This document shows positions 7,749 through 58,620 of a stretch of DNA of 64,000 bases, piece by piece. The stretch covers positions 7,876 to 71,875 of the forward strand of contig JBIKVS010000005.1 of the NCBI GenBank assembly GCA_044356725.1, read 5' to 3'. Made by a program: the position numbers and the translations under genes. This DNA is from Minisyncoccia bacterium. Lineage in GTDB: Bacteria; Patescibacteriota; Minisyncoccia; SW-4-49-11. Position 1 is the first letter of the stretch. Each line of letters starts with the position of its first letter. The notes under the pieces are model-generated. The model searched no databases and was not told the origin of the DNA. It saw only the letters and a list, made by a program, of their open reading frames with translations.

Positions 7749-7965
7749 ACAAAAAATATGTTTAAAAAATATGATATGGAATATAGATACCAATCATATA
7801 CATACTTAGTATAAACGACATCTATTGACCACATTGTCAAATATAATAACATATCAACCTAAATTTGTCAAGCTTTAATAACACCGATTGAAGGTGTCTA
7901 TTCTGTCCTCCCTTGGGGGAGGTGGCACCGTAGGTGACGGAGGAGGACTGAGCTAATTCCCCTAA

Positions 7966-9018
7966 TTATTCATTATCTTTCAAAAATTCTTTGATCTGTT
8001 TATCAAAATCAGATTCAAACAGCCTATCTTGCACAATTCTATATTTTTCAAATTGAGTTTCTGCATAAAGTTTAGCCTCCTCACTACTAATTTTACCTGC
8101 ATTGATAAGTATATCTCTATCATTAAATTCCAAAAAAGAATCAAGCCGCCTACTCCAATCCTCCATTGTCATAGGGATATTTCTCTCAGCCTGTAGCTCC
8201 GCATAATCAAGATACATAGAAACTATTCTTTCCAAAAAATTTATTTCCTTTTCTGTAAGATAATTTTTCGCAATACTTACATCATATTTTTGAATTTTAC
8301 CATTTGGAGCATCCAACCAGCTAGTAAGCCCCATATTTTCTTTATCAGCATTAGCTCTTTTTACAATCAATTCAGGAGCTGTATGTCTATGCACCGCATA
8401 ATGCAATTTATTTTGTACAATTTGGAAAAACTTAATAGTAGTAGAAGCAGAAGAATCATAATCAACACTAGTTGCATAAATATCCGTCACTTTTTGATAA
8501 AACATTCTTTCACTAAGCCTAATTTCTCTAATCTTTTGTAATTGTCTTTCAAAAAACTCTTTATCAAATTGATTAGCTTGCTTTAACCTTTCACTATCCA
8601 TAGCCCAACCCTGAATAGTATAATCTTTTACTATTTGTCTTGCCCATTTACGAAATTGTACAGCTCTGTCATTTTCTATCTTGAATCCAACTGCGATAAT
8701 AGCTTGGAGATTATAATGGTCTATATTCCTTTTTACTTCTCTTATACCTTCTCTTTGAACTATCAAGTATTGCTTGATAGTTGCTGAATCAATTTCTTTT
8801 TTTTCTACCAAAGTAGCAATATGCTGTTGTATAGCTTGCACAGATACCCCATACATTTCCGCCATCATTTTTTGAGTCATCCAGATATTTTCATCTTCAT
8901 ATCTGACCTCTATACTTTCCGAATCATCTCCACTCGAAGATACAAAAGTCAAATACTGAGCCGTACTTGCCTGAATAAGCTCCGCTGCAGATTTTTGCTT
9001 TAGTGTTTTTTTGGGCAT
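7966..9018 (-). CDS. RhuM-family protein (putative DNA-binding/virulence-associated)
   Basis: Conserved RhuM blocks: YNLQAIIAVGFKIENDRAVQFRKWARQIV, YQKVTDIYATS.DYD, KLHYAVHRHTAPELI. Paralogous to 43215-44222 and to the N-terminal half of 44785-45762. Confidence 0.6.
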   Translation of the reverse strand: MPKKTLKQKSAAELIQASTAQYLTFVSSSGDDSESIEVRYEDENIWMTQKMMAEMYGVSVQAIQQHIATLVEKKEIDSATIKQYLIVQREGIREVKRNIDHYNLQAIIAVGFKIENDRAVQFRKWARQIVKDYTIQGWAMDSERLKQANQFDKEFFERQLQKIREIRLSERMFYQKVTDIYATSVDYDSSASTTIKFFQIVQNKLHYAVHRHTAPELIVKRANADKENMGLTSWLDAPNGKIQKYDVSIAKNYLTEKEINFLERIVSMYLDYAELQAERNIPMTMEDWSRRLDSFLEFNDRDILINAGKISSEEAKLYAETQFEKYRIVQDRLFESDFDKQIKEFLKDNE

Positions 9019-25159: not shown

Positions 25160-25211
25160 GTGGAAATAAAGTTTTTTTTAGGAAGTTTTGGTCAAAATTT
25201 TTGGAGGAAAG

Positions 25212-25247
25212 AAAAAAGCCTCTGCGATGCAGGGGCTTGTGGGGTTT
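25212..25247. terminator. hairpin terminator module (bidirectional)
   Basis: aaaaaagcctctgcgatgcaggggcttgtggggttt. On the minus strand the stem is followed by a T7 run. The leader aaatttttggagNaaagaaaaaagcc is shared with 41121-41168. Confidence 0.5.
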
Positions 25248-25270
25248 AGTCGATCTAGATATTTTGTGGT

Positions 25271-25456
25271 TCATATATACTCTATAGAGTGAATATAAGA
25301 TCCATCACTTAATTGATTCATTTCTTCACATATACTCTTTACCTGTTCGACGGAATCATATTCAATAATTTTTCCCTTACCTTCACTACCAGTTCCTATG
25401 TGTTTCCAGTTAACCCGGGCTTTGATTTTGTTGTGCTCCTGCATATTAGGATCCAT
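25271..25456 (-). CDS. small conserved protein (61 aa), member of a 3-copy family in this window
   Basis: MDPNMQEHNKIKARVNWKHIGTGSEGKGKIIEYDSVEQVKSICEEMNQLSDGSYIHSIEYI. Has its own terminator. Paralogues at 42540-42735 (pseudogene) and 41916-42074 (GC-rich). Confidence 0.4.
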   Translation of the reverse strand: MDPNMQEHNKIKARVNWKHIGTGSEGKGKIIEYDSVEQVKSICEEMNQLSDGSYIHSIEYI

Positions 25457-25539
25457 TTTTTAGATGAAGCTTTTGTTTACTGAATACTTATAGCATAATA
25501 TTACTACTTTGTACATAGCTTAATTCTTCTTCGATAATA

Positions 25540-25800
25540 TTAGTCCACCCTCCGCCTACTGGTACTCCCTCCGAAGGGAGACATTAGCTCAGTCCACACC
25601 CGTCGCAAATGTCCTCCTCCCCCGTCGCAAATAGGATTTGCTCCTTGAAAATCCAGGGTTTCCAACACTCGGTCTTTGACCTCTTTGCCTTCCTCCACGG
25701 TAAAACTACCGTTTTCCCGACCCCTTTCCCAAAGGCTAAAGCCTTTTTTAGGTACTCCCTCCAACTACTTACGGCAGTTAAAAAGGGAGACATAAATACA
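25540..25800. repeat. GC-rich modular intergenic repeat cluster (modules A-B-C)
   Basis: gtccaccctcc..tactccctccgaagggagacattagctcag / ccgtcgcaaat(g/a)ggatttgctcc / ttgaaaa(c/t)ccacggtttccaacactcggtctttgacct... shared with 41630-41900, 42150-42530, 42815-43150, 44350-44750. Confidence 0.8.
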
Positions 25801-25838
25801 TAGATCCATAAATTGTCCTCCTTGATTTTTTGTAAATA

Positions 25839-27635
25839 CTATAAGCTCTTATAATATTTCTTAATCTTTTCAGCCATTAGCTTTCTTCTTTGTTTCAGAA
25901 AATCATCATAATCATCAATTGTCATATCAAAGATTGATTCAGGAATGCAATTCACCTCTAAATTCTGTTTTAACTCTTCTATCGAGTTTATACTTCCATA
26001 CTTGAACTCTCCCCCATTACACTGTTCTGTAACCGCTGCAAAATATTCATTAGGGGCTTTTTTACCTATACGAATATTAATCTCGGATTGAGAATATACA
26101 AAATTAGCAATTTGATTATAATCTCCCCTTGAAGTATATTTTTGCCTTAGATACTCTTTAGGGAAAATATGATGAATATCTCCTCTATGACTAATCAAGT
26201 TCCCAACGGTTATATCATTAGACAAAAATCCCTTATCATTAGCTTTCACTTGTGCAGCAAAGAAAACACTGAGAAAAGGACTTGTTCGAACTGAACGATC
26301 TAAATTCTCAACCAACCCAATATTCCAAAAAACATCAGATAGATCAGCAGATTCAATAGATTCTAAATATTTTTCAACACCATTTTTTACAATATTTTTG
26401 ATATCAAAATCAAACCATGATTCAGGAGAACCAGAATATCTTCCCGTCAAAACAGACATCACAAACCACCGCTGAACATAGCGAGCAATCAAAGCCTCAT
26501 CCATCCCATCATCCTTTAGCTTTAAGTATAAAATATAAGCAAAATTCAAAGTCGCTTTAGAACTAATCAAATCAGAATCAATAAATCCTGATGACTTAAT
26601 AATCATAATAAATCTCTTGAAATGAGTCTGATTGACAAAATCAAGTACACTCTCACTCAAGCGATAAAAAGACCTATCCATAATTTCCTGCTCAAAAGCT
26701 CTAGTCTCAAAATTCCTACCCGATAATAAACTAACCAAGTCACTCATTCTACCTCTTTCAAACTCCTTAGTAAAACTAACCCGCAAGACATCAGAATAAT
26801 TAGGATCATATAAATCATCATTTTCATCTTTCAACCAGCCAATTTTATGATAATATGGTGTCTCTACAAAGTCTTTATCATTTTCTGTAATTTGCTTAAA
26901 GAATTTAGGCTCTTTAGCTAGGTGACAAAAATAATCAATAGCCTTACGAAGATTAACCCCAAAATTATCCTCCACATCATAAGAAGCAATCTTAGACATT
27001 GCAAAATCTGCCTGACTTAAGACCACCCCTTCAGAATTAATACGGATAAATATCTCAGTCACTGTCTCAATATCCAAACTAGAATCAAGTTCAATAAATC
27101 CAATTTGTTTATTTTTAATATCCAATAAATTCTCAATGCTTTTCTCAACAATAGCCCTATCAATATCTGGATTCTTTTCGCAATATGTATTAACCGCTTG
27201 GAATAAACCAGCACCTTTACCCATCAATTCAGAAATATCTGGGATCCAAGCCACATCTTTTTCAATAGCAGGAGTAAAAGTTGCAAACTCTTCGTTTACT
27301 GGATGAAAAGCAATTTTAACCTTTTGCTCCTTATAATCTTTATCCACAATAGGCTCACCCAATACAGCAGCTCTTAAAGCAGTAATCCTCTGCTGTCCAT
27401 CAATCAAAACCTTTTTACCACTAGAAAGAGTACCATCTTTTAGCCTTACATCTGGATTTTTCCATGCAATAATATAGCCAATAGGATAACCTTGATACAA
27501 AGAATCCATAAGGTCACGAATTTTAGTAGTATCCCACACAAAAGGCCTTTGAATCTCAGGAATAGCAATCTCTTTTTCTTGAACCCAGCTTAAAATGTTA
27601 CTAATTAGATATTGATTAACAGTATATTTTTGCAT
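25839..27635 (-). CDS. GmrSD-like Type IV restriction endonuclease (DUF262 + DUF1524)
   Basis: EIQRPFVW and VLIDGQQRITAL (DUF262 DGQQR signature). C-terminal HIHHIFPKEY (His-Me finger/DUF1524). Confidence 0.75.
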   Translation of the reverse strand: MQKYTVNQYLISNILSWVQEKEIAIPEIQRPFVWDTTKIRDLMDSLYQGYPIGYIIAWKNPDVRLKDGTLSSGKKVLIDGQQRITALRAAVLGEPIVDKDYKEQKVKIAFHPVNEEFATFTPAIEKDVAWIPDISELMGKGAGLFQAVNTYCEKNPDIDRAIVEKSIENLLDIKNKQIGFIELDSSLDIETVTEIFIRINSEGVVLSQADFAMSKIASYDVEDNFGVNLRKAIDYFCHLAKEPKFFKQITENDKDFVETPYYHKIGWLKDENDDLYDPNYSDVLRVSFTKEFERGRMSDLVSLLSGRNFETRAFEQEIMDRSFYRLSESVLDFVNQTHFKRFIMIIKSSGFIDSDLISSKATLNFAYILYLKLKDDGMDEALIARYVQRWFVMSVLTGRYSGSPESWFDFDIKNIVKNGVEKYLESIESADLSDVFWNIGLVENLDRSVRTSPFLSVFFAAQVKANDKGFLSNDITVGNLISHRGDIHHIFPKEYLRQKYTSRGDYNQIANFVYSQSEINIRIGKKAPNEYFAAVTEQCNGGEFKYGSINSIEELKQNLEVNCIPESIFDMTIDDYDDFLKQRRKLMAEKIKKYYKSL

Positions 27636-33265: not shown

Positions 33266-36200
33266 ATGGAAAATGAAAGATATTTTAGATCACAAACTGA
33301 AGAAGAAATAAAGGAATTTGATGAACTACAAGCTAAGAAAGATGAGATAATTCTATTATTGAAAAGTGGTGATATTGAGGGAGTAAAACAAATTCAGCAG
33401 GAATTTGCTCTGTCTGATGACATTATGCAATCACCAGAAGTTCAAGAAGCTGCAATAGAAGGGTTTATTGATAACTTAAAATATGCTGAGATTAGGAGTG
33501 CAAAAGAAATTCAGCAGGAATTTTCTATCTCTGATGAGATACTACAGTCTTCCGAAGTCCAAGAAGCCGCTAAGGAAGGGATAATTTATAGATTAAAAAA
33601 GGGTAATATTGATACAGTAAAAAAAATAAAAGAAGAATTTTCTATATCGGAGGAAATAATACAATCTCCAGAAGTCCAAGAAGCCGCTAAGGAAGCGATA
33701 ATTTATAGATTAAAAAATGGAGATATTAGGAGTGCAAAAGAAATTCAGCAGGAATTTTCTATCTCTGATGAGATAGTCCAAGAAACTGCAATAGAAGGGT
33801 TTATTGATAACTTAAAATATGCTGAGATTAGGAGTGCAAAAGAAATTCAGCAGGAATTTTCTATCTCTGATGAGATACTACAGTCTTCCGAAGTCCAAGA
33901 AGCTGCTGTAAAAGGGATAATATTTATTTTACAGCAGGGTGATATTTATACAGTAAAAGAAATAAAAGAAGAATTTTCTATATCGGAGGAAATAATACAA
34001 TCTCCAGAAGTCCAAGAAGCTGCTGTAAAAGGGATAATATTTATTTTACAGCAGGGTGATATTTATACAGTAAAAGAAATAAAAGAAGAATTTTCTATAT
34101 CGGAGGAAATAATACAATCTCCAGAAGTCCAAGAAGCTGCTGTAAAAGGGATAATATTTATTTTACAGCATGGTAATATCGATAAAGCTAAAGAAATAAA
34201 AGAAGAGTTTAGTATATCAGAAGAGATAAGCCAGTCTCCAGAAGTCCAAGAAGCTGCTATAAAAGGAATAATATTTATTTTACAGTATGGTAATATCGAT
34301 AAAGCTAAAGAAATAAAAGAAGAGTTTAGTATATCAGAAGAGATAAGCCAGTCTCCAGAAGTCCAAGAAGCTGCTATAAAAGGAATAATATCTCTTTTGA
34401 AGATATATATGTTGGAGGAATATCCCCATGCAGCTATCGGAATAACTAGAGAAATAATAGATGAATTTAATGTATCAGAAGAGATAATACAACAAACTCC
34501 TAAAATTCAAGAAGTAGCGAAAGAAGGAATTATTTCCCAATTGAAGAGAGGAGATATTGAGATAGCTAAAAAAATACAGGAGGTATTTTTTGTTCCAATT
34601 GGAGAGGATATGAAAAATATGATTGAAATGAGTACACTATTTTCTACCTCTACAACCACTTCTTTTCAAACAATATCCATTAATTTAGATACTTATACAG
34701 AAGAACAATTAGCAACAATGTGGTCAAAAGCTCAAGAGTATGAATCTTGGGAAGATGAACATACTGTAAAAGCTCCCTTTGAGGCAGGTGTTGAAATATT
34801 TGGATATAAAAGAATGTTGCAGTATATAAAACGAGAAGGTTTAAGTCTTCATGATGCGGTGCATACTTTTGAGGGTGTTATTGACTTATACAATGTATCT
34901 GAGCTTGGCGAATCTGAATTTTATGGACACATTCTTCAGCAAGTTATGATGGATACCCGTGAATACGATGAAGGAAATGCACATCAACACTTTAATAGAA
35001 TTGTACAAACTATGAATAAAGATATTGCTGGAGTTTTGTCAAAAGCTGAGCAATATAATGAAGTCCAAAGATTACAAGATTTGATCTTATATTTTAATAA
35101 TCCTCAAGCAGTTTTTTCTTCTTGGAGTGATTTAAAAAGATATAGTGAGATTGAGCAGTTACTTGGACAAACCGAAATCTTAGATGAGCTAAAAGCATTA
35201 AAAGCAGAGGGAAAAGAAAAATTATATACTTATATTGAGACCCTTGCCTTCCACCCAGATAGTAAAGTTAATATGCAATCAGTTATGCAATTTTGGCGCG
35301 ACCCAGATGCATTTTTAGCAGCAGATGCTTCACATACCCCATATGAAATTCATAATAGAAAAAAGCCATCAAATTATATTGATATACCTAATTTAGATTT
35401 AACAGCATCAGAACTTAGAGATGCTTTGGTTGAGGGCAAGATGGATGGACTCTCTGTATTTACCCCATTAGAAATACGTTATACTATTCCTATAGAAGAT
35501 ATAAAATCTGAACCATTTCCAGATTTAGTCAATAAAGCACTCGGGTCAAGTAAAAAAGGTATTGCAGGAGAAGCAAGGAATCCACGTAAATTATTTAATG
35601 AGCTTGGGAAATTACTCAAACCTCATGGGGTAGGAGTGATTGAATATATTCAAGGACAATCATTACCAGAAGATATACATATTGATCAACAAATTCAAGA
35701 TTTGCTATATAATCCTGAATTTGGTATGAAAAAGTTAGAAGTTAAAGCAAGAGATTTTATAGCAAAAATAAGTCAGAAAAGTGATCCTGAAGGAGCAATA
35801 GCGGGAGATGATACTGTTAACTGTATGCCTTTTGGAGATGGCAAAAATACCTTATATACATTTAACCCAAATACTTCACAATTTGTAATTAGAGCGGTTA
35901 AGGGTGATGGAAAAGAAAGGACTATAGCTCAAAGTGTGTTGACAAAAGATATTGATGTACAAAAACCAGTCCCATATATTACACAACAATTAGAGCATAC
36001 GGGTGGACATCTTGAAAGTGTGTTATCTGAAAATCTTGTAATAAATGCTCCTGTTTATCTTGCTTGTGATAATATTGAAGTAGCTCCAAATTATTCTGAT
36101 GAAAGATATAAGCAAATTATTGAGGCAATATATAAAGATTTCTTTAGAGAGTATATGACTAAATACTCATCAACTCAAAACTTAGACCCTACTAAGGTTC

Positions 36201-36973
36201 CTATAGGAATGGGTTATACCGATGCTCTTAGTACATTACAAACAGAATCTAATACCTTTATCCCACAAGCTCCTGTGAGTTATTCAGACAAAACAGGAGA
36301 ATATGTATATACACTTGATCTTAGAAATGAAGAAAATTTAAATCTTATCTTAAATAAAGCGGTGCAAGAAACAGAAGTGGAAGCTCAGGGAGAAGTCCCT
36401 ATTCCTAACATAAAAGGATTAGATTACTTAACATTTGAGGATACACTTAAAGCCTCATATCTTGAGGGCAAAGCATATTCAGATAATCAAGGACTTATGC
36501 AGTTTTTAGCTAATATGGAAAATAGTTTAATTGCCAAAGACATAAATAATGCAGCTAAAGATAGACCTAATATGAGTCTTAAATATACAGATGAGGCTGG
36601 ACGAATTAAAGGCTATATGCTTTCCTGGGAGGGACATTTAAATGATAGAAATATTCAATACGATATGCCAAATTTATCTAATGAACCTTGTATTTATATT
36701 ATGGATCTTGCAACAGATTTAGAAAGTAGTATGGCTGGGGGGAGGTTGATACAAGGTTTTATAGAGTTGTATAGACAGAATTATCTCGATAAAGGAAATC
36801 TTATGCCAATTTTCACTCAAGCAAGGGAAGCTACTTCATATAAAATTATAAAAAAACAGTTAGATAGATTAGGTCAAAGTACTGGATTTGCTTTTGAACT
36901 GGTAGAATTACCTACATATAAAGTTGGAGATGATGTAATGTATCCTGTTATTATAAGTCCAGTCTCAACATAA
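33266..36973 (+). CDS. large repeat-containing protein (about ten 39-aa tandem repeats plus an 800-aa C-terminal domain of unknown function)
   Basis: Repeat unit EFSISEEIIQSPEVQEAAVKGIIFILQQGDIYTVKEIKE. 1235-aa ORF. Confidence 0.55.
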   Translation: MENERYFRSQTEEEIKEFDELQAKKDEIILLLKSGDIEGVKQIQQEFALSDDIMQSPEVQEAAIEGFIDNLKYAEIRSAKEIQQEFSISDEILQSSEVQEAAKEGIIYRLKKGNIDTVKKIKEEFSISEEIIQSPEVQEAAKEAIIYRLKNGDIRSAKEIQQEFSISDEIVQETAIEGFIDNLKYAEIRSAKEIQQEFSISDEILQSSEVQEAAVKGIIFILQQGDIYTVKEIKEEFSISEEIIQSPEVQEAAVKGIIFILQQGDIYTVKEIKEEFSISEEIIQSPEVQEAAVKGIIFILQHGNIDKAKEIKEEFSISEEISQSPEVQEAAIKGIIFILQYGNIDKAKEIKEEFSISEEISQSPEVQEAAIKGIISLLKIYMLEEYPHAAIGITREIIDEFNVSEEIIQQTPKIQEVAKEGIISQLKRGDIEIAKKIQEVFFVPIGEDMKNMIEMSTLFSTSTTTSFQTISINLDTYTEEQLATMWSKAQEYESWEDEHTVKAPFEAGVEIFGYKRMLQYIKREGLSLHDAVHTFEGVIDLYNVSELGESEFYGHILQQVMMDTREYDEGNAHQHFNRIVQTMNKDIAGVLSKAEQYNEVQRLQDLILYFNNPQAVFSSWSDLKRYSEIEQLLGQTEILDELKALKAEGKEKLYTYIETLAFHPDSKVNMQSVMQFWRDPDAFLAADASHTPYEIHNRKKPSNYIDIPNLDLTASELRDALVEGKMDGLSVFTPLEIRYTIPIEDIKSEPFPDLVNKALGSSKKGIAGEARNPRKLFNELGKLLKPHGVGVIEYIQGQSLPEDIHIDQQIQDLLYNPEFGMKKLEVKARDFIAKISQKSDPEGAIAGDDTVNCMPFGDGKNTLYTFNPNTSQFVIRAVKGDGKERTIAQSVLTKDIDVQKPVPYITQQLEHTGGHLESVLSENLVINAPVYLACDNIEVAPNYSDERYKQIIEAIYKDFFREYMTKYSSTQNLDPTKVPIGMGYTDALSTLQTESNTFIPQAPVSYSDKTGEYVYTLDLRNEENLNLILNKAVQETEVEAQGEVPIPNIKGLDYLTFEDTLKASYLEGKAYSDNQGLMQFLANMENSLIAKDINNAAKDRPNMSLKYTDEAGRIKGYMLSWEGHLNDRNIQYDMPNLSNEPCIYIMDLATDLESSMAGGRLIQGFIELYRQNYLDKGNLMPIFTQAREATSYKIIKKQLDRLGQSTGFAFELVELPTYKVGDDVMYPVIISPVST
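33420..34560 (+). repeat. 117-bp tandem repeat array inside the CDS (some adjacent units identical)
   Basis: 33901-34017 is identical to 34018-34134. The flanking units are progressively diverged. Confidence 0.8.
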
Positions 36974-37641: not shown

Positions 37642-40600
37642 TTATCTCACTACAAGGAAGCTAATCAATTCAAAATCTTCTAGTCCCTGTACATTTTGTC
37701 TAGTAAAAGTAGTTCCTCCTGGTCGGAATAGGCTATCTAGATCGGTTTCCTCTTTAAGGTTAATAATTGAGTCGATGGCTTGGTCTAATAGTTCAGAATA
37801 TTCTTGCATATTATTGCCATCATCGGTTTCTTGGTTGAATGGTTGATATACTTCTGGAATTGGAGTATTGTCATTTCTGGCTATGGCTCTCATTATATCT
37901 AGAGTTTTTTTGACATTAAGATGATTGACTACAATTTCGCCATCTTGTGAGATATATACTAGATAAAATGGGTGTAATTGATTTATATTATTGATATTGA
38001 TTTCATTACGACGATTTTTGAGTATAAAGATAACTCCTGGATTGGCATTGATTTCTGGTTTGGCCTTACAAACTGCATGCATTCCTGTGGGCATATTTTG
38101 ATAGGTTTTGAGGTCATTAGCTTTACCTATCAAATCCATTCTAAAATCATTGAGTCCTAAATCGGTGATTGAAACTCCTGTATCCATATCTTCCAAATCA
38201 ATTACTTCATTTTGTAGTTTTTGTAATTGTTTTTTACGAAATTCTAAATCAACTGAGCTATTATTTAAGACATTATCCTCTCCTGTAGATACATTCACCA
38301 TAGTCATTCTATTCTCTACTCTATTCTTAAGGTCAATATAAGAGTCTAAATCTATTGATGGCCAGAAATTTACTAATTGTATATCTTTGTTTTGAGACCC
38401 GATTCTATCTATTCTTCCAAATCTCTGAATAATTCGAACTGGGTTCCAATGTATATCATAATTTACTAGATAATCACAATCTTGAAGATTTTGTCCTTCC
38501 GAAATACAATCTGTGGCGATGAGAATGTCTATTTCTGGATAATCTTGATATTTATCTTGTCTTTTCTTCGATTTTGGGGAGAAAAATGTGAGCAAGGTAT
38601 TAAAATCTGAACCTATATTTAAGGTGGATTTATTATTACCAGAACCTATAATTTGAGCTACTTCCAAGTTTAGATTATTCTTAGCATAAACTGATATATG
38701 TTCATATAAATATTCGGCTGTATCTGCAAAAGCAGTAAAGATTAAAATCTTTTTATTATTTGGGTTAATTGGATGCTTTTGTTTATATTCAATAATATTT
38801 TTTAAGGCTCTTAGCTTACTATCTTGTTCTGGTGTGACTCTTGTCATTTCTAAAAGTATGGAGTTAATTATGGCAAGGTCAGCTTCTAAATCTCGCTTCC
38901 AAGTCAAGGTATCCATATCTTCTAATTTGATTTGGACTTTTTGTCCTATAATTGAGTCTTCGTCATCTTCTTCGGTTATAGTATTGAAACTTCCTGCTTG
39001 ACTACTATGATTTGTTTCAAATGCTGATATTTTTTGTAAATTCTCTTCAATATTTTGTTGTAAACTAGATAGAGTTAAGCGAAAAGAATGAACCGAACTT
39101 TCTAATCTTTTTAGTAAATTAGTAAATATGAGCTTTTTAAGACTCATTTCTCTAGTAGATTGCTGAAAACTAACTCTATCTGTGACTTTAGTGTCGTATA
39201 GATCACTATAATAATCTTGCTTTCCTATTAGAATATAGTTGGTGGGAGAATATACAGCTAAAGATAATTTTAATAGCTTATCTGCCACTTCTGACATATC
39301 CATAAAGTCTGGTAAATCGGTTATCTCAGGGTTTAAAGGAATTGGTTTAAGTCTATTAGGGAATTGTCCAATTTGAGACATATCATAGTATTTTTGTATA
39401 TGTTTACGACTTCTAGCTATGGTTATGCTATCTAATAATTTGAAGAAATCAAAGTGGCTACTTAGTCTATTCAATAATTCTGATGTTGTCCTCTCCTCTG
39501 CTGGTAATTTAGACCATTGATTAAAAGTTGTCTGAGCTCTTTTGATAATAGAATCTATGGAATATTTAGGGTCTATATTCTCATCAATTTGATTGGTCTT
39601 ACCTTCATAAGCTAATGCGATCTGATTTTTGAGATCTGATAATTCATTATTTACCGGAGTTGCTGAGAGCATTAAAACTTTAGTTTGAACTCCAGCTTTC
39701 ATAACGTCATCTAAAAGTTTATCATAACGAGTTTTCTTTTTGCCCTCATCTGTTGAGCTATTATTTTTATTACGAAAATTGTGAGACTCATCTATGACTA
39801 CTAAATCGTAATTCCCCCAATTAATTCTAGATAGGTCAATCTCTCCTGAGCGACCAAACTCTCTTGATAAATCAGTGTGAAATAAGACATCATAATTAAA
39901 TCTATCTTTAATAAGAGGATTGTCATAATAAGTTTTAGTATAAGTCTGCCAATTATCTCCTAACTTTTTTGGACAAAGCACTAATATATTTTGATTTCTC
40001 TCTTGATAGTATTTGATTACTCCTAATGTGGTGAATGTTTTTCCTAGACCAACACTATCTGCTAATATACATCCGTTATATCTTTCTAGTTTATTTATTA
40101 TTCCTATAACGGCATCTTTCTGAAAATCGTATAAAATATTCCAAATTTGGGATTCTTTGAAACCTGTTTTTTCATTTGGCAATTCATCTTCAATGATATT
40201 TTCTAAAAACTCATTAAAAATATTATATAGAGTAAAATAATAAATAAATGATGGTGGATTTTCTTTATATAAATTACTAATATAGTCCACTACTTCATCC
40301 GTCACATCTTTCAAAGCTTTTGGATCATTCCATAAGTTGTTGAAATTATTTAGATATTGCTGAGTTAATTCTTTACCTAATAATTTGGTTGTCCCTCGTA
40401 GAATAACTCCATCACTTTCATATCCAAAACCTGCACTACTAAATTCATCTAAAGGCAAATAAACAGTGGATTCATCCTTATTGTCTATGGCTAAATTAGA
40501 ATGTATGCCTCCATGTATATTGGATTTAAACTTTACTTTTTGCTCTATCCATTGTTTACACTCTTTGGCAATTGCCCTGCCAGTCAATTCATTTTTTAAA

Positions 40601-40881
40601 TTTATTTCAAATTCTGATCCACCAACAGATTGTTTCTTTTTATCTGATCTAATTTCAAATAACTTTTGCTCTCGTGAAGTTTTTTCAGCTTCTATAAAGG
40701 TTGGGTCTGTAAAAATAAATCTTAATTCATCAATATCGGACAACTCTTTTTTTAAGCTATTATACCCATACATTGAGAATATAGAGGCAGCAACTGAAAC
40801 CTTTGCCCCAGATTTGAGATCTTTTTTTAGTTCATCTCCAATTTTATCAGTGGTATTATTTAACAGCTTTGGAATTGACAT
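37642..40881 (-). CDS. SNF2-family helicase with degenerate PLD-like N-terminal domain
   Basis: GLGKTFT (I), VVIDESHNFRN (II), MLSATPVNN (III), QRFGRIDRIG (VI). The N-terminal 150 aa align in pattern with the PLD domain of 20102-23500 but lack an HxK. Confidence 0.65.
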   Translation of the reverse strand: MSIPKLLNNTTDKIGDELKKDLKSGAKVSVAASIFSMYGYNSLKKELSDIDELRFIFTDPTFIEAEKTSREQKLFEIRSDKKKQSVGGSEFEINLKNELTGRAIAKECKQWIEQKVKFKSNIHGGIHSNLAIDNKDESTVYLPLDEFSSAGFGYESDGVILRGTTKLLGKELTQQYLNNFNNLWNDPKALKDVTDEVVDYISNLYKENPPSFIYYFTLYNIFNEFLENIIEDELPNEKTGFKESQIWNILYDFQKDAVIGIINKLERYNGCILADSVGLGKTFTTLGVIKYYQERNQNILVLCPKKLGDNWQTYTKTYYDNPLIKDRFNYDVLFHTDLSREFGRSGEIDLSRINWGNYDLVVIDESHNFRNKNNSSTDEGKKKTRYDKLLDDVMKAGVQTKVLMLSATPVNNELSDLKNQIALAYEGKTNQIDENIDPKYSIDSIIKRAQTTFNQWSKLPAEERTTSELLNRLSSHFDFFKLLDSITIARSRKHIQKYYDMSQIGQFPNRLKPIPLNPEITDLPDFMDMSEVADKLLKLSLAVYSPTNYILIGKQDYYSDLYDTKVTDRVSFQQSTREMSLKKLIFTNLLKRLESSVHSFRLTLSSLQQNIEENLQKISAFETNHSSQAGSFNTITEEDDEDSIIGQKVQIKLEDMDTLTWKRDLEADLAIINSILLEMTRVTPEQDSKLRALKNIIEYKQKHPINPNNKKILIFTAFADTAEYLYEHISVYAKNNLNLEVAQIIGSGNNKSTLNIGSDFNTLLTFFSPKSKKRQDKYQDYPEIDILIATDCISEGQNLQDCDYLVNYDIHWNPVRIIQRFGRIDRIGSQNKDIQLVNFWPSIDLDSYIDLKNRVENRMTMVNVSTGEDNVLNNSSVDLEFRKKQLQKLQNEVIDLEDMDTGVSITDLGLNDFRMDLIGKANDLKTYQNMPTGMHAVCKAKPEINANPGVIFILKNRRNEININNINQLHPFYLVYISQDGEIVVNHLNVKKTLDIMRAIARNDNTPIPEVYQPFNQETDDGNNMQEYSELLDQAIDSIINLKEETDLDSLFRPGGTTFTRQNVQGLEDFELISFLVVR

Positions 40882-41080: not shown

Positions 41081-41142
41081 TTTAGTCCTGTTTGAGTTCT
41101 AAATTATGGCAAATTCGCTATAATTAAAATTTTTGGAGTAAA

Positions 41143-41168
41143 GAAAAAAGCCACCTTGTGTGGTGGCT
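41143..41168 (-). terminator. Rho-independent terminator
   Basis: Minus strand reads gccaccacacaaggtggc followed by tttttt. Confidence 0.5.
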
Positions 41169-41187
41169 TGGGGTTGAGAGAAAATTC

Positions 41188-41556
41188 TCAGATTGGGCTT
41201 TTGGGAACAAGTCCGAGGCGCTCAACCTCAGGTTTGAGGTGGCAGACCTCTGGTTGTTCTGTTCTTTCTAACAATGGATCTCCGAGCAGAGCATACCCTG
41301 AAGTTGATGAACCCCCACTGTAGTAGGGAGCACAGTTAATGGGGCGGGATGCCCTGATCTGATCTCGAGCATCAGAGGCTGCGGCTATGTGAAGCATAGC
41401 AGCGTGAAGCATAGCAGCAGAAGCTTCGGCTCTGTGAAGCCTTGGAAGGAAGTAAATACTTGGTGTAGAACCAACTATTACTCCGAAAAGTAAGAAGAGA
41501 ATACGAGAGTCAGGCTTCCAAAGAGAATTTTGTTTGATAACTTCAGGTTTTTTCAT
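41188..41556 (-). CDS. small N-terminally anchored protein in a GC-rich (about 50%) segment
   Basis: 122-aa ORF with a TM segment (ILFLLFGVIVG). Contains the internal tandem 15-bp repeat gtgaagcatagcagc x2. Confidence 0.3.
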   Translation of the reverse strand: MKKPEVIKQNSLWKPDSRILFLLFGVIVGSTPSIYFLPRLHRAEASAAMLHAAMLHIAAASDARDQIRASRPINCAPYYSGGSSTSGYALLGDPLLERTEQPEVCHLKPEVERLGLVPKSPI

Positions 41557-41629
41557 TGAAAAATGAATTTGTTTTTCAAATAGACATTAGCACATAAAAC
41601 ACATTTTGTCAATAGTAGTCGTCAATTTG

Positions 41630-41900
41630 TAGTATGAGAGGCGATATGTCCACCCTCCGCCGTCGCAAATGGGATTTGCTCCTTGAAAACCCACGGTTTC
41701 CAACACTCGGTCTTTGACCTCGTTGCCTTCCTCCACGGAAAAACTCCCGTTTTCCCGACCCCTTTCCCAAAGTCTAAAGCCTTTTTACGGTGACACCTCC
41801 CCCAAGGGAGGACACAATACTTTTCCACCCCGTCAGGCAAAGCCTGCCACCCCTCAAGAGGGGAATTTAAAAAGCCACCGTGAGCGGGTGGCTTGGGGGG
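41630..41900. repeat. GC-rich modular repeat cluster (modules B-C-D-E)
   Basis: Shares over 85% identical blocks with 42150-42530 and 44350-44750. Ends with the gccaccgtgagcgggtggc terminator hairpin. Confidence 0.8.
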
Positions 41901-41915
41901 CTATGTATGAAGGAA

Positions 41916-42074
41916 TCAGGCACGAACTGCCCAGTGGCGGATACCAGGGCACTCCTGGTCCATCTCGTCACACATACTCTTGGCTTCTTTATCAGAGGAC
42001 ATGAGGATGGGAGAGGTTCCATGACCTGTCACTCCTGTGAAGGTTGATTTCCAATGAATTACGTAACGAAACAT
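41916..42074 (-). CDS. GC-rich paralogue (52 aa) of the 25271-25456 small-protein family
   Basis: MFRYVIHWKSTFTGVTGHGTSPILMSSDKEAKSMCDEMDQECPGIRHWAVRA aligns with ...VNWKHIGTGSEGKGKIIEYDSVEQVKSICEEMNQ... The terminator hairpin sits immediately downstream. Confidence 0.3.
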   Translation of the reverse strand: MFRYVIHWKSTFTGVTGHGTSPILMSSDKEAKSMCDEMDQECPGIRHWAVRA

Positions 42075-42149
42075 GGCCTTAGAGGTCAATTTACGATATT
42101 ATATATACCATATTTTACCAATTTTGTCAATAGTAGGCGTCAATTTGTA

Positions 42150-42530
42150 GTATGAGAAGCAATGTCCACCCTCCCCCTGCGGGTACTCCCTCCGAAGGGA
42201 GACATTAGATCAGGACACAATCCCCCGTCATAAATGTCCTCCTCCGCCGTCGTAAATAGGATTTACTCCTGTCCTCACTCCGTCGTCGCAAATGGGGATT
42301 TGCTCCTTGAAAACCCACGGTTTCCAACACTCGGTCTTTGACCTCGTTGCCTTCCTTCACGGTAAAACTACCGTTTTCCCGACCCCTTTCCCAGAATTTC
42401 AGTCTAACTACGGTGACACCTCCCCCGAGGGAGGACACAATACTTTTCCACTCTGTCCAGCAAAACCTGCCACCCCTCAAGAGGGGCATTTAAAAAGCCA
42501 CCGTGAGCGGGTGGCTTGGGGTTTAGTCGA
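42150..42530. repeat. GC-rich modular repeat cluster (modules A-B-B'-C-D-E)
   Basis: See the repeat family above. Confidence 0.8.
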
Positions 42531-42539
42531 TCTAGCTAT

Positions 42540-42735
42540 TTTGTGGTTCATATATATTCTACAGAGTGAATATAAGATCCATTACTTAATTGATTCATTT
42601 CTTCACAGATACTCTCTACCTGTCCGACTGAATCATATTCAATGATTGGTCCCTTACCTTCAGTACCATTTCCCATATGTTTCCAGTTAACCCGGGCTTT
42701 GATTTTTTTGGACTCCTACATATTAGGATTCATTT
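42540..42735 (-). pseudogene. pseudogene copy of the 25271-25456 small gene (CAG to TAG at codon 6)
   Basis: About 88% nt identity to 25255-25460, including flanks. Reads MNPNM*ESKKIKARVNWKHMGNGTEGKG... Confidence 0.5.
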
Positions 42736-42814
42736 TGGAGATACAGATTGTGTTTACTCAATACTTATAGCATAATATTGTTACTTTGTACATAAATTAA
42801 TTCTTCTTCGATAA

Positions 42815-43150
42815 TATTAGTCCACCCTCCCCCTACGGGTACTCCCTCCGAAGGGAGACATTAGCTCAGTCCACACCCGTCGCAAATGTCCTCCTCCCCC
42901 GTCGCAAATGGGATTTGCTCCTGTCCTCCTCCGTCACCTTTGGTGCCACCTCCCCCGAGGGAGGACAGAATGAAATCCATCCCAGCCTTGCAGGCTTTCC
43001 CCTCCGAAGGGGGACAATAACTCAAGTTACAGAATACTTCCACCCTGTCCAGCAAAGCTGTCCACCCCTCAATTTATCGACCGTAGGTGGAGAGAGGAAT
43101 TTTAATACAAAACACAGGCGACTGTAAGGTCGCTCCTAGGAAACAAATGG
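42815..43150. repeat. GC-rich modular repeat cluster (modules A-B-D-E')
   Basis: Contains cctcaatttatcgaccgtaggtggagag...ttttaatacaaaacacaggcgactgtaaggtcgc, the same module as 44665-44745. Confidence 0.8.
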
Positions 43151-43214
43151 TGTGGCAAGAGACCTTAAGGTTTATAAATACTATTTAGATATCACAGAAC
43201 AATAGCCTATAAAG

Positions 43215-44222
43215 TTATTTTTTTATTTTCTCTACTAATTTATCAAAGTCATTTGCGTAATTTTTATCTTGAATTACTCTAAATTTATCATATTCTGCTT
43301 CAGCTTTGAGCTTAGCTTCAAGCATTGATACTTTACCGTTATCTAGCAAAATTGGATCCCCTGAAAGTTCTAAGAATTGGTGTAAGAAAATATCCCAATC
43401 TTTCATATTCATTACTTTTCTATTTCTGGCTCTACTTTCTGCTAGATCTAAATAAGCCGATACTATTCTCTCTAGTTCTTTAATATGATTTTGATCAAGA
43501 TAATTCTTAGCTATTACAACATCACTTTTTAAAATTTTACCACTGGGAGAATGTTTCCAAGTTTTTAAACCCATAAATATTTTTTTATGATCAGCCTCAT
43601 TGTATATAATTTCAGCTGCGGTCTTCCCAGTGATTGCCCAATGTAATTTATTTTGTACTGTTGCAAAAAAATGTTTAGTGATATCTGCTTGACTATCATA
43701 ATCTGCTGAAAGTGTGTATATATCTGTTATTTTCTGATATAGTCTCCTCTCACTCATTCGTATTTCACGAATTCTTTCAAGCATTTCATCAAAATAATCT
43801 TTACCAAAATGCTTGATTTGTTTCAGCTTCTCATCATCCATAGCAAAGCCTTTGATTATGTATTCTTGCAGAACTAGAGATGCCCATTTACGGAATTCTA
43901 TTGCTCTATGTGAATTTACACGATATCCAACTGCTAAAATAGCTTGCAAGTTATAATATTCTAATTTTCTTTTAACTTTTCTTTTACCTTCATTTTGAAC
44001 TATTTCCAAAATGGAAACAGTTGCCTCTTTGATAAGCTCACCTTCTGTATAAATATTATCTAAATGCTTTGAAATAGCTGGGATTTTGACCTCGAATAAC
44101 TCAGCCATCTTCTTTTGGGTAAGCCATAAGGTTTCATCTTTAAAAAAAACATCAATGTTAATCTTCCCTGAGTCTGTTTGGAATATAACGAAATTATTTA
44201 ATAGCTCTAAATCTTGGCTCAT
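43215..44222 (-). CDS. RhuM-family protein
   Basis: YNLQAILAVGYRVNSHRAIEFRKWASLVL, YQKITDIYTLSADYD, KLHWAITGKTAAEII. Confidence 0.6.
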   Translation of the reverse strand: MSQDLELLNNFVIFQTDSGKINIDVFFKDETLWLTQKKMAELFEVKIPAISKHLDNIYTEGELIKEATVSILEIVQNEGKRKVKRKLEYYNLQAILAVGYRVNSHRAIEFRKWASLVLQEYIIKGFAMDDEKLKQIKHFGKDYFDEMLERIREIRMSERRLYQKITDIYTLSADYDSQADITKHFFATVQNKLHWAITGKTAAEIIYNEADHKKIFMGLKTWKHSPSGKILKSDVVIAKNYLDQNHIKELERIVSAYLDLAESRARNRKVMNMKDWDIFLHQFLELSGDPILLDNGKVSMLEAKLKAEAEYDKFRVIQDKNYANDFDKLVEKIKK

Positions 44223-44349
44223 ACTATTATGTTTGTATATTATGTAATTTAATTATACCGCATTTTAAGATTTTTGAGGAGGGGTGAAATTATAAATTAT
44301 GGATTGTTAATTATTAAATGATAAATTAGTAGAGTCGGTGCCCTCACCG

Positions 44350-44750
44350 ACATTATTCTAGAATTCCACCCTCCCCCTACGGGTACTCCCTCCTAAGGGA
44401 GACATTAGCTCAGTACACAATCACCCGTTAAAATGTCCGACGCCGTCGCAAATTGGATTTACTCCTGTCCTCACTCCGTCGTCGCAAATGGGGATTCGCT
44501 CCTTGAAAACCCACGGTTTCCAACACTCGGTCTTTGACCTCGTTGCCTTCCTTCACGGTAAAACTACCGTTTTCCCGACCCCTTTCCCAGAATTTCAGTC
44601 TAACTACGGTGACACCTCCCCCAAGGGAGGACAAAATACTTTTCCACCCCGTCAGGTGAAACCTACCACCCCTCAATTTATCGACCGTAGGTGGAGAGGG
44701 GAGTTTTAATACAAAATACAGGCGACTGTCAGGTCTCACCTATAAATGCA
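44350..44750. repeat. GC-rich modular repeat cluster (modules A-B-B'-C-D-E')
   Basis: See the repeat family above. Confidence 0.8.
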
Positions 44751-44784
44751 AAAGCTCTCGAGAGTGAAATTTTATATTCTAGGA

Positions 44785-47044: not shown

Positions 47045-47170
47045 TTCGACAGGCTCAACAAACTAAGTCCTCCTCCGTCACCTACGGTGCCACCTCCCCC
47101 AAGGGAGGACACAATACTTTATCTACTAGAAAGAAAAAAGCCCCCGCTATCAGCGACGGCGGGGGTAAAT
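47045..47170. repeat. GC-rich repeat module D plus terminator hairpin
   Basis: gtcctcctccgtcacctacggtgccacctcccccaagggaggacacaatact, then gcccccgc-tatcagcgacg-gcggggg with a T-run on the minus strand. Confidence 0.6.
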
Positions 47171-55720: not shown

Positions 55721-55747
55721 ATATGCTATAGTAGAACTATAGCATTT

Positions 55748-56431: not shown

Positions 56432-56602
56432 AATTTTATAAATTAATTGATATTTTTATTATACACTATTTAGTGAATATATTGTAAATAATTGAATATT
56501 ATATTTTAAGTGCTGGAAACATCTAAGTTGCCTAGTAAAATTTAGTATAAATACAATAATTATGATATTATATAAATATATATTAATTTATTTATATAAT
56601 CT

Positions 56603-57142: not shown

Positions 57143-57159
57143 ACTTTATAGTTAAATTT

Positions 57160-58349: not shown

Positions 58350-58359
58350 TTGCGGAGAG

Positions 58360-58450
58360 AGGTATATTACGAACTCGTCGTGAATGGGATTTGCTCCTAT
58401 CCACCCTCCCCCTTCGGGCACTCCCTCCAAAGGGAGACAAAATAAATTCC
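58360..58450. repeat. GC-rich repeat element (modules B'-A)
   Basis: cgaactcgtcgtgaatgggatttgctcc...ccaccctcccccttcgggcactccctccaaagggagac. Confidence 0.6.
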
Positions 58451-58620
58451 AACCTCAAAAAAACAATGTCTACGATGTTTCTCATCTTTTTCAGGGGTAA
58501 AAATTATAATATTTAAGGCTATTTACAGAGTTTTTAAGGTGTGATATATTGATAATCTAATTATAGATGTAAATTTACTACTCTATAATTATAGTTATCC
58601 ATACTATCGGGAGCTTCCGA

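What the first reader, a model, noticed from the sequence alone, without database searches (positions are those of the whole stretch)
25255..25460. Three-copy family of tiny genes (52-61 aa) embedded among the repeats, each with its own terminator: one intact, one pseudogene, one re-coded at high GC
25271-25456 (intact, 61 aa), 42540-42735 (about 88% nt identical with a CAG-to-TAG nonsense at codon 6) and 41916-42074 (52 aa, about 50% GC) share a conserved core (N/H)WK...G.G..G......S...K.SxC(E/D)EM(N/D)Q. All three are followed by a strong hairpin plus T-run (gcctctgcgatgcaggggc or gccaccgtgagcgggtggc) and preceded by a repeat cluster. Conservation of the peptide across very different codon compositions argues that it is a real, selected coding sequence. 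Possibilities include a small toxin or regulator, or the cargo of the repeat elements.
Basis: seen in the sequence. Interest (0 to 1): 0.55.

Follow-up and report, generated by a model that had tools for sequence, protein, structure and literature searches.

The report
Phage-related tiny-protein gene cassettes
Three small stand-alone genes (one of them broken) in a bacterial anti-phage defence island encode members of a rare, unnamed family of about 50-60-residue proteins otherwise found in phage genomes; the genes are real, but what the protein does is still a guess.

Summary
On the minus strand lie an intact 61-aa ORF (25456..25271), a 90%-identical copy with TAG at codon 6 (42733..42548) and a 52-aa, 50%-GC relative (42074..41916). 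Each has an extended-10 sigma-70-like promoter and a GC hairpin plus U-run. They are coding. A profile built only from this lineage found 11 further clusters of tiny proteins among 1.8 billion, all sharing Y-x-I-H-W...T-G-x-x-G-H-G...C-D-x-L-N...H-W. AlphaFold gives one confident beta-beta-alpha-beta fold for both types (pLDDT 85 and 96). dN/dS is about 0.4-0.5. The five distant relatives whose contigs I read all sit in phage-like contigs among runs of small genes. No Pfam, NCBIfam, PHROG, PADLOC or PDB family matches.

The high-GC copy is not a re-coded duplicate. It is closer to the phage relatives (39-47%) than to copies A/B (25-31%).

The units are built like phage morons and sit at junctions of a defence island (RhuM, GmrSD, SNF2, R-M genes). 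GC-rich hairpin-repeat clusters flank them in direct orientation. Related strains carry them in different numbers and places. Only 1 of 28 other repeat-bearing loci carries a family member, so the gene is not obligate cargo of the repeats.

Function is inferred only: probably a small binding protein in phage-host conflict.

The parts
25271..25456 (-). Copy A: intact 61-aa ORF (MDPNMQEHNKIKARVNWKHIGTGSEGKGKIIEYDSVEQVKSICEEMNQLSDGSYIHSIEYI)
   Evidence: HMM score 83.5 bits. Identical protein P0001 on 8 contigs. AF2 model pLDDT 84.8, beta-beta-alpha-beta.
25483..25517 (-). Promoter block type 1 of copy A: TGTACA (25510-25515), 17 nt, TGc-TATAAG (25487-25492), an extended -10
   Evidence: Read. 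The same 35-mer (two positions left free) is present upstream of A-type genes in 6 related loci, and within 5 mismatches upstream of B-type genes. Function as a promoter is inferred.
25205..25238 (-). Terminator of copy A: AAGCCCCUGC-AUC-GCAGAGGCUU followed by UUUUUUCUUU. It also faces the convergent 503-aa gene.
   Evidence: -11.7 kcal/mol, z -4.28
25540..25838 (.). GC-rich hairpin-repeat cluster between the GmrSD stop and copy A's promoter
   Evidence: (D3, D8-D10, D13); GC 0.47
42548..42733 (-). Copy B: pseudogene, TAG at codon 6 (42716-42718). The intact allele is P0004 in other strains.
42760..42794 (-). Promoter block type 1 of copy B
42492..42520 (-). Terminator of copy B (AAGCCACC-CGCUCAC-GGUGGCUU UUUAAAU)
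   Evidence: -12.5 kcal/mol, z -2.89
42821..43214 (.). Repeat cluster between the RhuM stop and copy B's promoter
41916..42074 (-). Copy C: intact 52-aa ORF, GC 0.497 (MFRYVIHWKSTFTGVTGHGTSPILMSSDKEAKSMCDEMDQECPGIRHWAVRA)
   Evidence: AF2 model pLDDT 96.1. dN/dS 0.41 against the L033 allele.
42102..42157 (-). Promoter block type 2 of copy C: TTGACA (42125-42130), 17 nt, TGg-TATATA (42102-42107)
   Evidence: (D20). Promoter plus 5'UTR are 95% conserved against L033, while the CDS is 83%.
41869..41897 (-). Terminator of copy C
   Evidence: -12.5 kcal/mol, z -3.53
42165..42490 (.). Repeat cluster between cassettes B and C
41646..41868 (.). Repeat cluster between cassette C and the fourth cassette
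41145..41639 (-). Fourth cassette of the same build but an unrelated gene. It has promoter block type 2 (41603-41639), a 122-aa ORF with an N-terminal hydrophobic helix (41188-41556), and a terminator of the same type (41145-41172).
   Evidence: -13.5 kcal/mol, z -6.09. Homologues of 115-121 aa lie in the same kind of cassette in L002, L004, L005 and L031.

Best explanation
The three ORFs are members of a rare protein family that none of the libraries searched holds. Two are intact and one is inactivated. The family consists of about 50-60-residue, soluble, mostly mildly acidic proteins. They fold as a three-stranded sheet packed on one helix (beta-beta-alpha-beta).

The other members examined are carried by phages, inside runs of small overlapping genes. 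In this low-GC bacterium each copy is instead an autonomous transcription unit. It has its own extended-10 promoter, a short leader without a Shine-Dalgarno sequence, the ORF and an intrinsic terminator. This is the architecture described for phage morons.

The units sit at gene junctions of an anti-phage defence island, downstream of RhuM or GmrSD genes. They lie between directly oriented clusters of GC-rich hairpin repeats.

Because every unit has the same flanks (terminator, repeat cluster, promoter block), recombination in the flanks can add, delete and move units. This would explain why related strains carry one, two or three of them, and carry the same gene in different junctions.

Shown: the coding status, the family, the fold prediction, the signal motifs, the phage context of the relatives and the strain-to-strain reshuffling.

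Inferred: the protein acts by binding another macromolecule in phage-host conflict. Most likely it is an inhibitor or modulator of a defence or phage protein, captured from a phage and kept by the host. It evolves fast on its surface and is lost in some strains.
For: Coding status and family:
- A profile built from this lineage alone retrieved 11 other clusters of 49-153-aa proteins at E = 5e-7 to 8.5e-4, corrected for 1.84 billion sequences. They align motif for motif.
- W17, G23, G28 and H56 are invariant.
- AF2 gives pLDDT 84.8 (A) and 96.1 (C) with the same topology.
- dN/dS is 0.41-0.64 between the A-type and B-type lineages and 0.41-0.44 within the C type. The combined excess of synonymous changes has p about 0.01.

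Phage link:
- P0008, P0009, P0015, P0018 and P0019 lie in contigs with terminase, holin, endolysin, P22-type genes, HNH or DnaB. They sit within runs of small co-directional genes.
- Copy C is closer to these relatives than to A/B.

Autonomous units:
- Promoter blocks are conserved across loci.
- Terminators fold at -11.7 to -13.5 kcal/mol.
- The GC of C (0.50) differs from its neighbours (0.31).
- The moron definition comes from PMC3594210.

Defence-island setting: GmrSD/HEC-05, SNF2+HKD, DUF4391, three RhuM paralogues, type IIG and type III R-M genes, AIPR and Schlafen-like genes.

Reshuffling between strains:
- GmrSD then A in the window and L016.
- RhuM, A, HsdM in L001.
- RhuM, A, SNF2 in L020.
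- RhuM, B, SNF2 in L006.
- RhuM, B, 121-aa gene, HsdM in L004 and L005.
- C upstream of RhuM in L003 and L033.

The proteins are hydrophilic, and 11 of 14 carry a net negative charge.
Against: - No experiment or expression data exist. Promoters and terminators are sequence predictions. The simple promoter scan did not list them because their hexamers deviate from the scan's rules.
- Purifying selection is only moderate and rests on 19-27 substitutions per comparison.
- Copy B is dead and its dead allele is common (P0005 on 9 contigs), which fits dispensability.
- Nothing ties the protein to a particular partner. Neighbours of the phage relatives are not conserved.
- Fold searches gave no significant match. 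The best were PaaB (E 0.11, TM 0.65) and Dmd (TM 0.56, E 2-4).
- No phage structural genes lie in the window, so the units are not morons in the strict sense.
Confidence: 0.55

Rival explanations
1. Decaying passengers. The genes were dropped into recombination-prone, repeat-rich junctions by horizontal transfer. They have no function for the host and are being lost.
For: - Copy B carries a premature TAG, and that allele is widespread.
- winB differs from its intact allele by 6 nonsynonymous and 0 synonymous changes.
- dN/dS of 0.4-0.6 is high for a functional gene.
- Presence and position vary between strains.
Against: - Intact A-type and C-type ORFs are kept in many contigs with unchanged core motifs.
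- Promoter and 5'UTR are conserved better than the CDS (95% against 83%).
- dN/dS is below 1 in both lineages.
Confidence: 0.2
2. Cargo of a mobile cassette system. The repeat clusters are recombination sites (integron- or MITE-like) that capture and array small genes.
For: - The array reads RhuM, repeats, P-B-T, repeats, P-C-T, repeats, P-122aa-T.
- Whole units differ between strains.
- At least three unrelated small genes use the same flanks.
Against: - No integrase or transposase was found among the 45 window ORFs scanned against Pfam.
- The repeats are in direct, not inverted, orientation.
- Repeats are dispersed without cassettes in the window, and 27 of 28 other repeat loci lack a family member.
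- Each cassette has its own promoter, unlike integron cassettes.
- Unit gain and loss is equally explained by homologous recombination between identical flanks.
Confidence: 0.1
3. Small DNA-binding regulator (an Arm/AP2-like sheet-plus-helix domain) that controls neighbouring defence genes.
For: - One family member hit Pfam Arm-DNA-bind_4 at E 0.0024.
- The sheet-plus-helix architecture is compatible with this.
- The genes always lie next to defence genes.
Against: - Only 1 of 14 members gave that hit, at noise level; ParB_C and DUF1947 scored 0.01.
- Most members are acidic (pI 4.9-6.8), which is unusual for DNA binders.
- Strand order is beta-beta-alpha-beta, not beta-beta-beta-alpha.
- The neighbouring gene changes from context to context.
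Confidence: 0.1
4. Toxin or antitoxin of a toxin-antitoxin-like pair, for example with the adjacent RhuM / RhuM-Fic genes or with an antisense RNA.
For: - A RhuM gene is adjacent in most host contexts.
- A weak, non-significant fold resemblance to the phage antitoxin Dmd, TM 0.56.
- A 56-aa hydrophobic antisense ORF overlaps copy A.
Against: - The units are monocistronic. They are separated from RhuM by 220-400 nt of repeats and have their own promoter.
- Copy A follows GmrSD instead of RhuM in the window and L016.
- C lies upstream of RhuM in L003 and L033.
- The protein is hydrophilic with no membrane segment.
- The antisense ORF is not preserved at B or C.
- No PADLOC or Pfam toxin-antitoxin family matches.
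Confidence: 0.07
5. Not protein-coding. The conserved 320-nt unit is a small RNA gene and the ORF is incidental.
For: - Own promoter and terminator, with a short transcript.
- Substitutions are spread almost evenly over the three codon positions.
Against: - The peptide motif is conserved at 25-47% identity across genomes of 33-69% GC, where the DNA is unalignable.
- Confident AF2 folds.
- No Rfam match over the B and C units and their flanks (41100-44800) at E <= 1, apart from sub-threshold whalefall-1 hits in the repeats. The whole window gave only three tRNAs at gathering threshold.
Confidence: 0.03

Closest known systems
Phage morons (autonomous accessory transcription units, first described in HK97/HK022; reviewed in PMC3594210)
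   Same: One small gene with its own sigma-70-type promoter and intrinsic terminator, inserted between other genes. Composition differs from the surroundings for copy C (0.50 against 0.31 GC). Relatives are phage-borne. Presence is patchy among related genomes.
   Different: The units are not inside a prophage; no phage structural, integration or lysis genes lie in the window. They sit in a chromosomal defence island and are flanked by host-specific GC-rich repeat clusters. A/B have nearly host-like GC (0.35).
Small phage anti-defence / antitoxin proteins such as T4 Dmd (about 60 aa, inhibits RnlA/LsoA) or T4 IPI* (inhibits GmrSD). The functions quoted are recalled from my own knowledge.
   Same: Similar size, solubility and a compact sheet-plus-helix fold. 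Phage origin, fast sequence evolution, and in the host a position next to GmrSD and other defence genes.
   Different: No sequence similarity. The fold match to Dmd is not significant (TM 0.56, E 2-4). No inhibition has been tested. The gene is carried by the host, not only by phages.
PaaB, the small bridging subunit of phenylacetyl-CoA oxygenase (PDB 3egr, 4iit)
   Same: Best structural neighbour of the copy C model (TM 0.65, rmsd 2.8 A over 53 columns, Foldseek probability 0.99). PaaB is also a small protein.
   Different: E-value is only 0.11 and identity 15%. There is no paa operon context. The resemblance is probably just a common small alpha/beta fold.
Integron gene cassettes / REP-BIME-type intergenic repeats
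   Same: Arrays of small, often orphan genes separated by structured repeats. Cassette content varies between strains. The repeats are short GC-rich hairpins clustered in intergenic regions.
   Different: No integrase. The cassettes carry promoters. The repeats are composite clusters of 220-400 nt rather than single attC sites, and they are dispersed independently of the cassettes.

Membership tests
Phage moron | Own promoter upstream of the gene | tested here: inconclusive
   TTGACA/TGTACA, 17 nt, TGn-TAnnnT motifs are present and conserved across loci. No transcript data. The simple scan did not list them.
Phage moron | Own factor-independent terminator | tested here: met
   Hairpins of -11.7 to -12.5 kcal/mol (z -2.9 to -4.3) after the three family members, each followed by 5-6 U.
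Phage moron | Base composition unlike the flanking genes | tested here: inconclusive
   Met for C (0.497 against 0.31). Marginal for A/B (0.349 against 0.31-0.33).
Phage moron | Located inside a phage or prophage genome | tested here: not met
   The 45 window ORFs scanned against Pfam are chromosomal and defence genes, with none phage-structural. Only the distant relatives are in phage contigs.
Integron gene cassette | Integron integrase (IntI) and attI nearby | tested here: not met
   No tyrosine recombinase among the 45 window ORFs scanned against Pfam.
Integron gene cassette | Promoterless ORF followed by a single attC inverted-repeat site | tested here: not met
   Each unit has its own promoter block. 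The spacers are composite clusters of several short hairpins, 220-400 nt long.
Type I toxin-antitoxin toxin | Short hydrophobic membrane peptide | tested here: not met
   GRAVY is -0.39 to -1.11 for all 14 members. The AF2 fold is globular.
Type II toxin-antitoxin pair | Two adjacent co-transcribed small genes | tested here: not met
   The units are monocistronic between a promoter and a terminator. Neighbours vary.
Any curated protein family (Pfam-A, NCBIfam, PHROGs, PADLOC, PDB sequences) | Score above the family threshold | tested here: not met
   Best Pfam hit E 0.0024, in 1 of 14 members. NCBIfam 0.01. PHROGs 0.0023, in 1 of 14. No PADLOC hit for A or C. The PDB profile search gave E >= 0.18.
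Dmd-like phage antitoxin | Significant structural or sequence similarity to Dmd | tested here: not met
   Foldseek TM 0.56, E 2.0-4.1.
MITE / transposon cargo | Terminal inverted repeats and target-site duplication around the gene | tested here: not met
   The diagnostic repeat motifs flank the genes in the same (+) orientation. 27 of 28 other repeat loci have no family member. Target-site duplications were not searched for exhaustively.

The most novel reading that the evidence does not exclude
The terminator, repeat cluster and promoter flanks are the working parts of a so-far undescribed, recombinase-independent (or unknown-recombinase) cassette-exchange system. In this uncultured low-GC lineage the system collects phage-derived small genes at defence-island junctions. 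On this reading the beta-beta-alpha-beta protein is a new class of defence modulator or anti-defence inhibitor that the host has turned to its own use.
Probability: 0.12. Interest if true: 0.7.

Novelty: new member of a known kind. Interest (0 to 1): 0.4.

Why it matters
Small proteins are under-annotated. Those that move between phages and defence islands are the main source of newly found anti-defence and defence-regulating factors.

This finding defines a clean, testable family:
- a conserved motif;
- a confident predicted fold;
- only 13 clusters (at 50% identity) among 1.8 billion representative proteins;
- both phage-borne and host-borne members.

The host copies are self-contained expression units that can be cloned directly.

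It also documents how repeat-flanked junctions of a defence island in an uncultured bacterium exchange small genes between strains.

If the family turns out to have no conflict role, it is just one more orphan small-protein family.

Tried and rejected
- Searches with no usable result: Pfam, NCBIfam, PHROGs, PADLOC and PDB sequence searches of all family members found no family.
- Foldseek against BFVD and PDB with both models found nothing significant. BFVD returned only uncharacterised small phage proteins.
- tblastn of four family members against 50,697 GenBank phage records found no true match.
- The distant relatives have no conserved partner gene; the two 101-aa downstream genes are unrelated.
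The repeat motif is absent from viral contigs.
- The first metagenome scan, with the terminator/hairpin junction, found nothing.
- Rfam gave only sub-threshold whalefall-1 hits inside the repeats.
- Folding a whole repeat cluster on either strand was no better than shuffles (z -0.7 and -1.5). I therefore treat the clusters as strings of local hairpins, not one structured RNA.
- The 403-aa cluster mate P0023 is an unrelated protein and a clustering artefact.
- Literature look-ups of the MAG names found nothing.
- The host's taxonomy stays unresolved. The nearest MAGs are labelled Paceibacterota and Saccharibacteria. RpoB gave no decisive placement.

Full report
**1. Observation**

The three ORFs are on the minus strand.

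- Copy A (25456..25271) is an intact 61-codon ORF.
- Copy B is in the same frame at 42733..42548. It has TAG (42716-42718) where A has CAG at codon 6.
- A and B are 89.8% identical over the CDS. They are 90% identical over 300 nt that include the upstream and downstream signals (D7).
- Copy C (42074..41916) encodes 52 aa at 49.7% GC. A/B are at 34.9% and the neighbouring genes at 31-33%.
- A and C are significantly similar (BLASTP E = 5e-7).
- A six-frame HMM search finds no fourth copy in the window.

Each ORF is followed by a GC hairpin plus a U-run. The three hairpins fold at -11.7, -12.5 and -12.5 kcal/mol, with z-scores from -2.9 to -4.3. Each ORF is preceded by a cluster of GC-rich repeats.

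**2. Is it a gene?**

In the 5.8-billion-protein collection the close relatives are few:

- P0001 and P0002 are A-type.
- P0004 is an intact B-type allele.
- P0006 is C-type.
- P0005 is the 42-aa product that gene callers report from the TAG allele. It is seen on 9 contigs from several sources, so the nonsense codon is a real and common allele.

I built a profile from these lineage-specific sequences only and ran it against 1.84 billion representative proteins. It returned 11 further clusters at whole-library E-values of 5e-7 to 8.5e-4. Ten are proteins of 49-94 aa. One is a 153-aa protein with the domain at its C-terminus.

They align motif for motif: Y-x-I-H-W-[KR]-[SA]-x-x-T-G-x-x-G-H-G, then A-x-x-[IM]-C-D-x-[LM]-N, then H-W-[IV]-E. 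W17, G23, G28 and H56 are invariant.

The contigs that carry these relatives range from 43 to 69% GC. The peptide is therefore conserved where the DNA is not.

AlphaFold2 gives the same beta-beta-alpha-beta fold for copy A (pLDDT 84.8) and copy C (pLDDT 96.1).

Nei-Gojobori dN/dS values:

- 0.41-0.64 between the A-type and B-type lineages (5-7 synonymous against 12-17 nonsynonymous differences).
- 0.41 between window C and a divergent C-type allele found in L033.

The pooled excess of synonymous change has p of about 0.01. The sequence is coding and under moderate purifying selection, but it evolves fast.

**3. What the family is**

No Pfam, NCBIfam, PHROG or PADLOC model and no PDB sequence matches. 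The best hits are single-member, noise-level ones.

Foldseek finds only uncharacterised small phage proteins in BFVD (best E 0.016). In the PDB nothing is significant:

- PaaB with the copy C model: TM 0.65, E 0.11.
- MzrA with the copy A model: TM 0.59.
- T4/RB69 Dmd: TM 0.56, E 2-4.

The proteins are hydrophilic (GRAVY -0.4 to -1.1). Eleven of 14 carry a net negative charge, and several have acidic C-terminal tails.

I read the contigs of five distant relatives, and all were phage-like. They carry a terminase with an intein, a holin, an Amidase_2 endolysin, P22-type genes, HNH or DnaB. In each, the gene lies in a run of small co-directional, often overlapping genes. The neighbours are not conserved. 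GenBank phage genomes contain no detectable member, so the family is rare.

**4. Copy C is not a re-coded copy**

C shares 39-47% identity with the phage-borne members but only 25-31% with A/B. A/B and C are two deep branches of the family, and were probably acquired separately. C and the neighbouring 122-aa gene (47% GC) still look foreign in a 32.6% GC genome.

**5. Anatomy of the units**

Reading the minus strand, the order is:

1. RhuM (44222..43215)
2. repeat cluster
3. promoter block 1, B, terminator
4. repeat cluster
5. promoter block 2, C, terminator
6. repeat cluster
7. promoter block 2, a 122-aa ORF with an N-terminal hydrophobic helix, terminator
8. AT-rich spacer
9. SNF2 (40881..37642)

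Copy A has the same build downstream of GmrSD (27635..25839). It converges on a 503-aa sigma-70-region-4/HTH protein.

- Promoter block 1 reads TGTACA, 17 nt, TGc-TATAAG.
- Promoter block 2 reads TTGACA, 17 nt, TGg-TATATA, or TGc-TAATGT for the 122-aa gene.
- Both blocks are extended -10 types. They recur almost unchanged in related loci.
- For C, the promoter and 5'UTR are 95% conserved while the CDS is 83%.
- The terminators share the outer stem AAGCC...GGCUU. The inner stem differs between A and the others, and pairing is largely kept.

One gene with its own promoter, its own terminator and a deviant composition is the definition of a phage moron (PMC3594210). However, the window contains no prophage. 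Among the 45 ORFs scanned against Pfam it carries rpoB, tRNAs, ksgA, dus and a long defence island. The island contains:

- three RhuM paralogues
- AIPR
- a type IIG Eco57I-like enzyme
- a Schlafen/AlbA_2 protein
- PLD-SNF2
- type III Res/Mod
- GmrSD/HEC-05
- SNF2+HKD with DUF4391

**6. Mobility**

Related strains carry the units in different arrangements:

| Arrangement | Loci |
|---|---|
| GmrSD, A | window, L016 |
| RhuM, A, HsdM | L001 |
| RhuM, A, SNF2 | L020 |
| RhuM, B(intact), SNF2 | L006 |
| RhuM, B, 121-aa gene, HsdM | L004, L005 |
| C upstream of RhuM | L003, L033 |

Whole units, running from inside one repeat cluster to the same point in the next, are gained or lost.

All units share the same flanks and the flanking repeats are in direct orientation. 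Unequal or ectopic homologous recombination is therefore sufficient, and no integrase or transposase was found in the window.

The repeats themselves are dispersed and independent of the genes. Clusters without cassettes lie at 44365-44742, 47067-47115, 58352-58468 and 61883-61923. A metagenome scan with the core hairpin motif returned 28 loci, of which one (L033) holds a family member. The phage relatives lack the repeats. The genes are embedded among the repeats but are not their obligate cargo.

A whole cluster does not fold better than shuffled sequence. Rfam gives only sub-threshold hits. I read the clusters as strings of local hairpins of the REP/BIME kind.

**7. How it most likely works**

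Shown:
- a real small-protein family with a compact fold
- phage-borne relatives
- host copies built as autonomous units in defence-island junctions
- strain-to-strain reshuffling
- one dead copy

Inferred: the protein acts by binding another macromolecule in phage-host conflict. I favour an inhibitor or modulator of a defence or phage protein, captured from phages and retained by the host. The reasons are:

- the family's phage context among small accessory genes
- the exclusive defence-island location in the host
- the acidic, soluble, domain-sized nature of the protein
- the fast divergence outside a fixed core

This functional step has no direct evidence. I put it at roughly one in four. 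The structural and evolutionary description is near nine in ten.

Rivals are listed with their tests:
- functionless passengers
- a true cassette-capture system
- a small DNA-binding regulator
- a toxin-antitoxin component
- a non-coding RNA

**8. Novelty and verdict**

The architecture (moron-like unit) and the setting (variable junctions of defence islands) are known kinds of things. The protein family is absent from every library I searched. Its occurrence as repeat-flanked arrays in an uncultured low-GC bacterium has no counterpart that I know of.

The nearest MAGs are labelled Paceibacterota and Saccharibacteria, and the taxonomy is not secured.

I rate it a new member of a known kind, of moderate interest. 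It is a compact, directly testable candidate for a conflict-related small protein.

Noticed in passing
window 41145-41639 (-); L002 3998-4345; L004 6430-6795; L031 7423-7770: A second cassette gene family: a 115-122-aa protein with an N-terminal hydrophobic helix, conserved ends and a highly variable middle. It is driven by the same promoter block as copy C and ends in the same type of terminator. It has no Pfam or PADLOC match.
   Followed up: partly
L002 4448-4732 (-); L033 5521-5802 (+): A third small gene (93-94 aa, MDPRTANKHK.../MKSNTDKTHK...) lies next to the small-protein cassettes in two related strains, in the opposite orientation. It is absent from the window.
   Followed up: no
window 7904-7922, 25540-25838, 41646-43214, 44365-44742, 47067-47115, 58352-58468, 61883-61923: A dispersed family of GC-rich (47-54% GC) composite repeats built from short hairpins, such as GCAAAT-nnn-ATTTGC, CTCCCT-nnnn-AGGGAG and CCTCCC-nnnn-GGGAGG, plus GGAGG(N)GGAC motifs. 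They lie in a 33% GC genome. They were not found in IMG/VR viral contigs or in the phage relatives, and their only Rfam hits (whalefall-1) are sub-threshold. Gene callers place ORFs of 69-127 aa inside them (for example L016 4664-4873 and L003 27-410); these look spurious to me.
   Followed up: partly
window 33359-34487, inside the 1235-aa ORF 33266-36973: About nine tandem 117-nt (39-codon) repeats lie inside a large ORF with no Pfam or PADLOC match. The ORF sits in the defence island next to DUF4391 and SNF2+HKD.
   Followed up: no
window 55745-58551 vs 59666-61923: Several blocks are duplicated at 83-98% identity. The duplication covers the Vut_1 transporter genes (55748-56431 and 59669-60352), the 3' part of the DNA-alkylation-repair gene (58054-58353 vs 61561-61860), and an intergenic 54-mer that is 98% identical (53311 vs 58498).
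   Followed up: no
window 7966-9018, 43215-44222, 44785-45762: Three RhuM-family paralogues lie in one 40-kb stretch, one of them fused to a Fic domain (PDC-S05 / PDC-S23 candidates). The RhuM loci are the commonest neighbours of the small-gene cassettes across strains.
   Followed up: partly
window 25313-25483 (+): A 56-aa hydrophobic ORF lies antisense to copy A and is preserved in the A-type loci L001 and L002. It is not preserved at copies B or C. It is probably a by-product of AT-rich codon usage rather than a gene.
   Followed up: partly
window 789-3977 (-): RpoB is short (1062 aa). It aligns end to end in a single stretch with several chains of 1070-1132 aa, while the highest-scoring chains match in two stretches. 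The Patescibacteria labels on the nearest MAGs are therefore not independently confirmed.
   Followed up: partly
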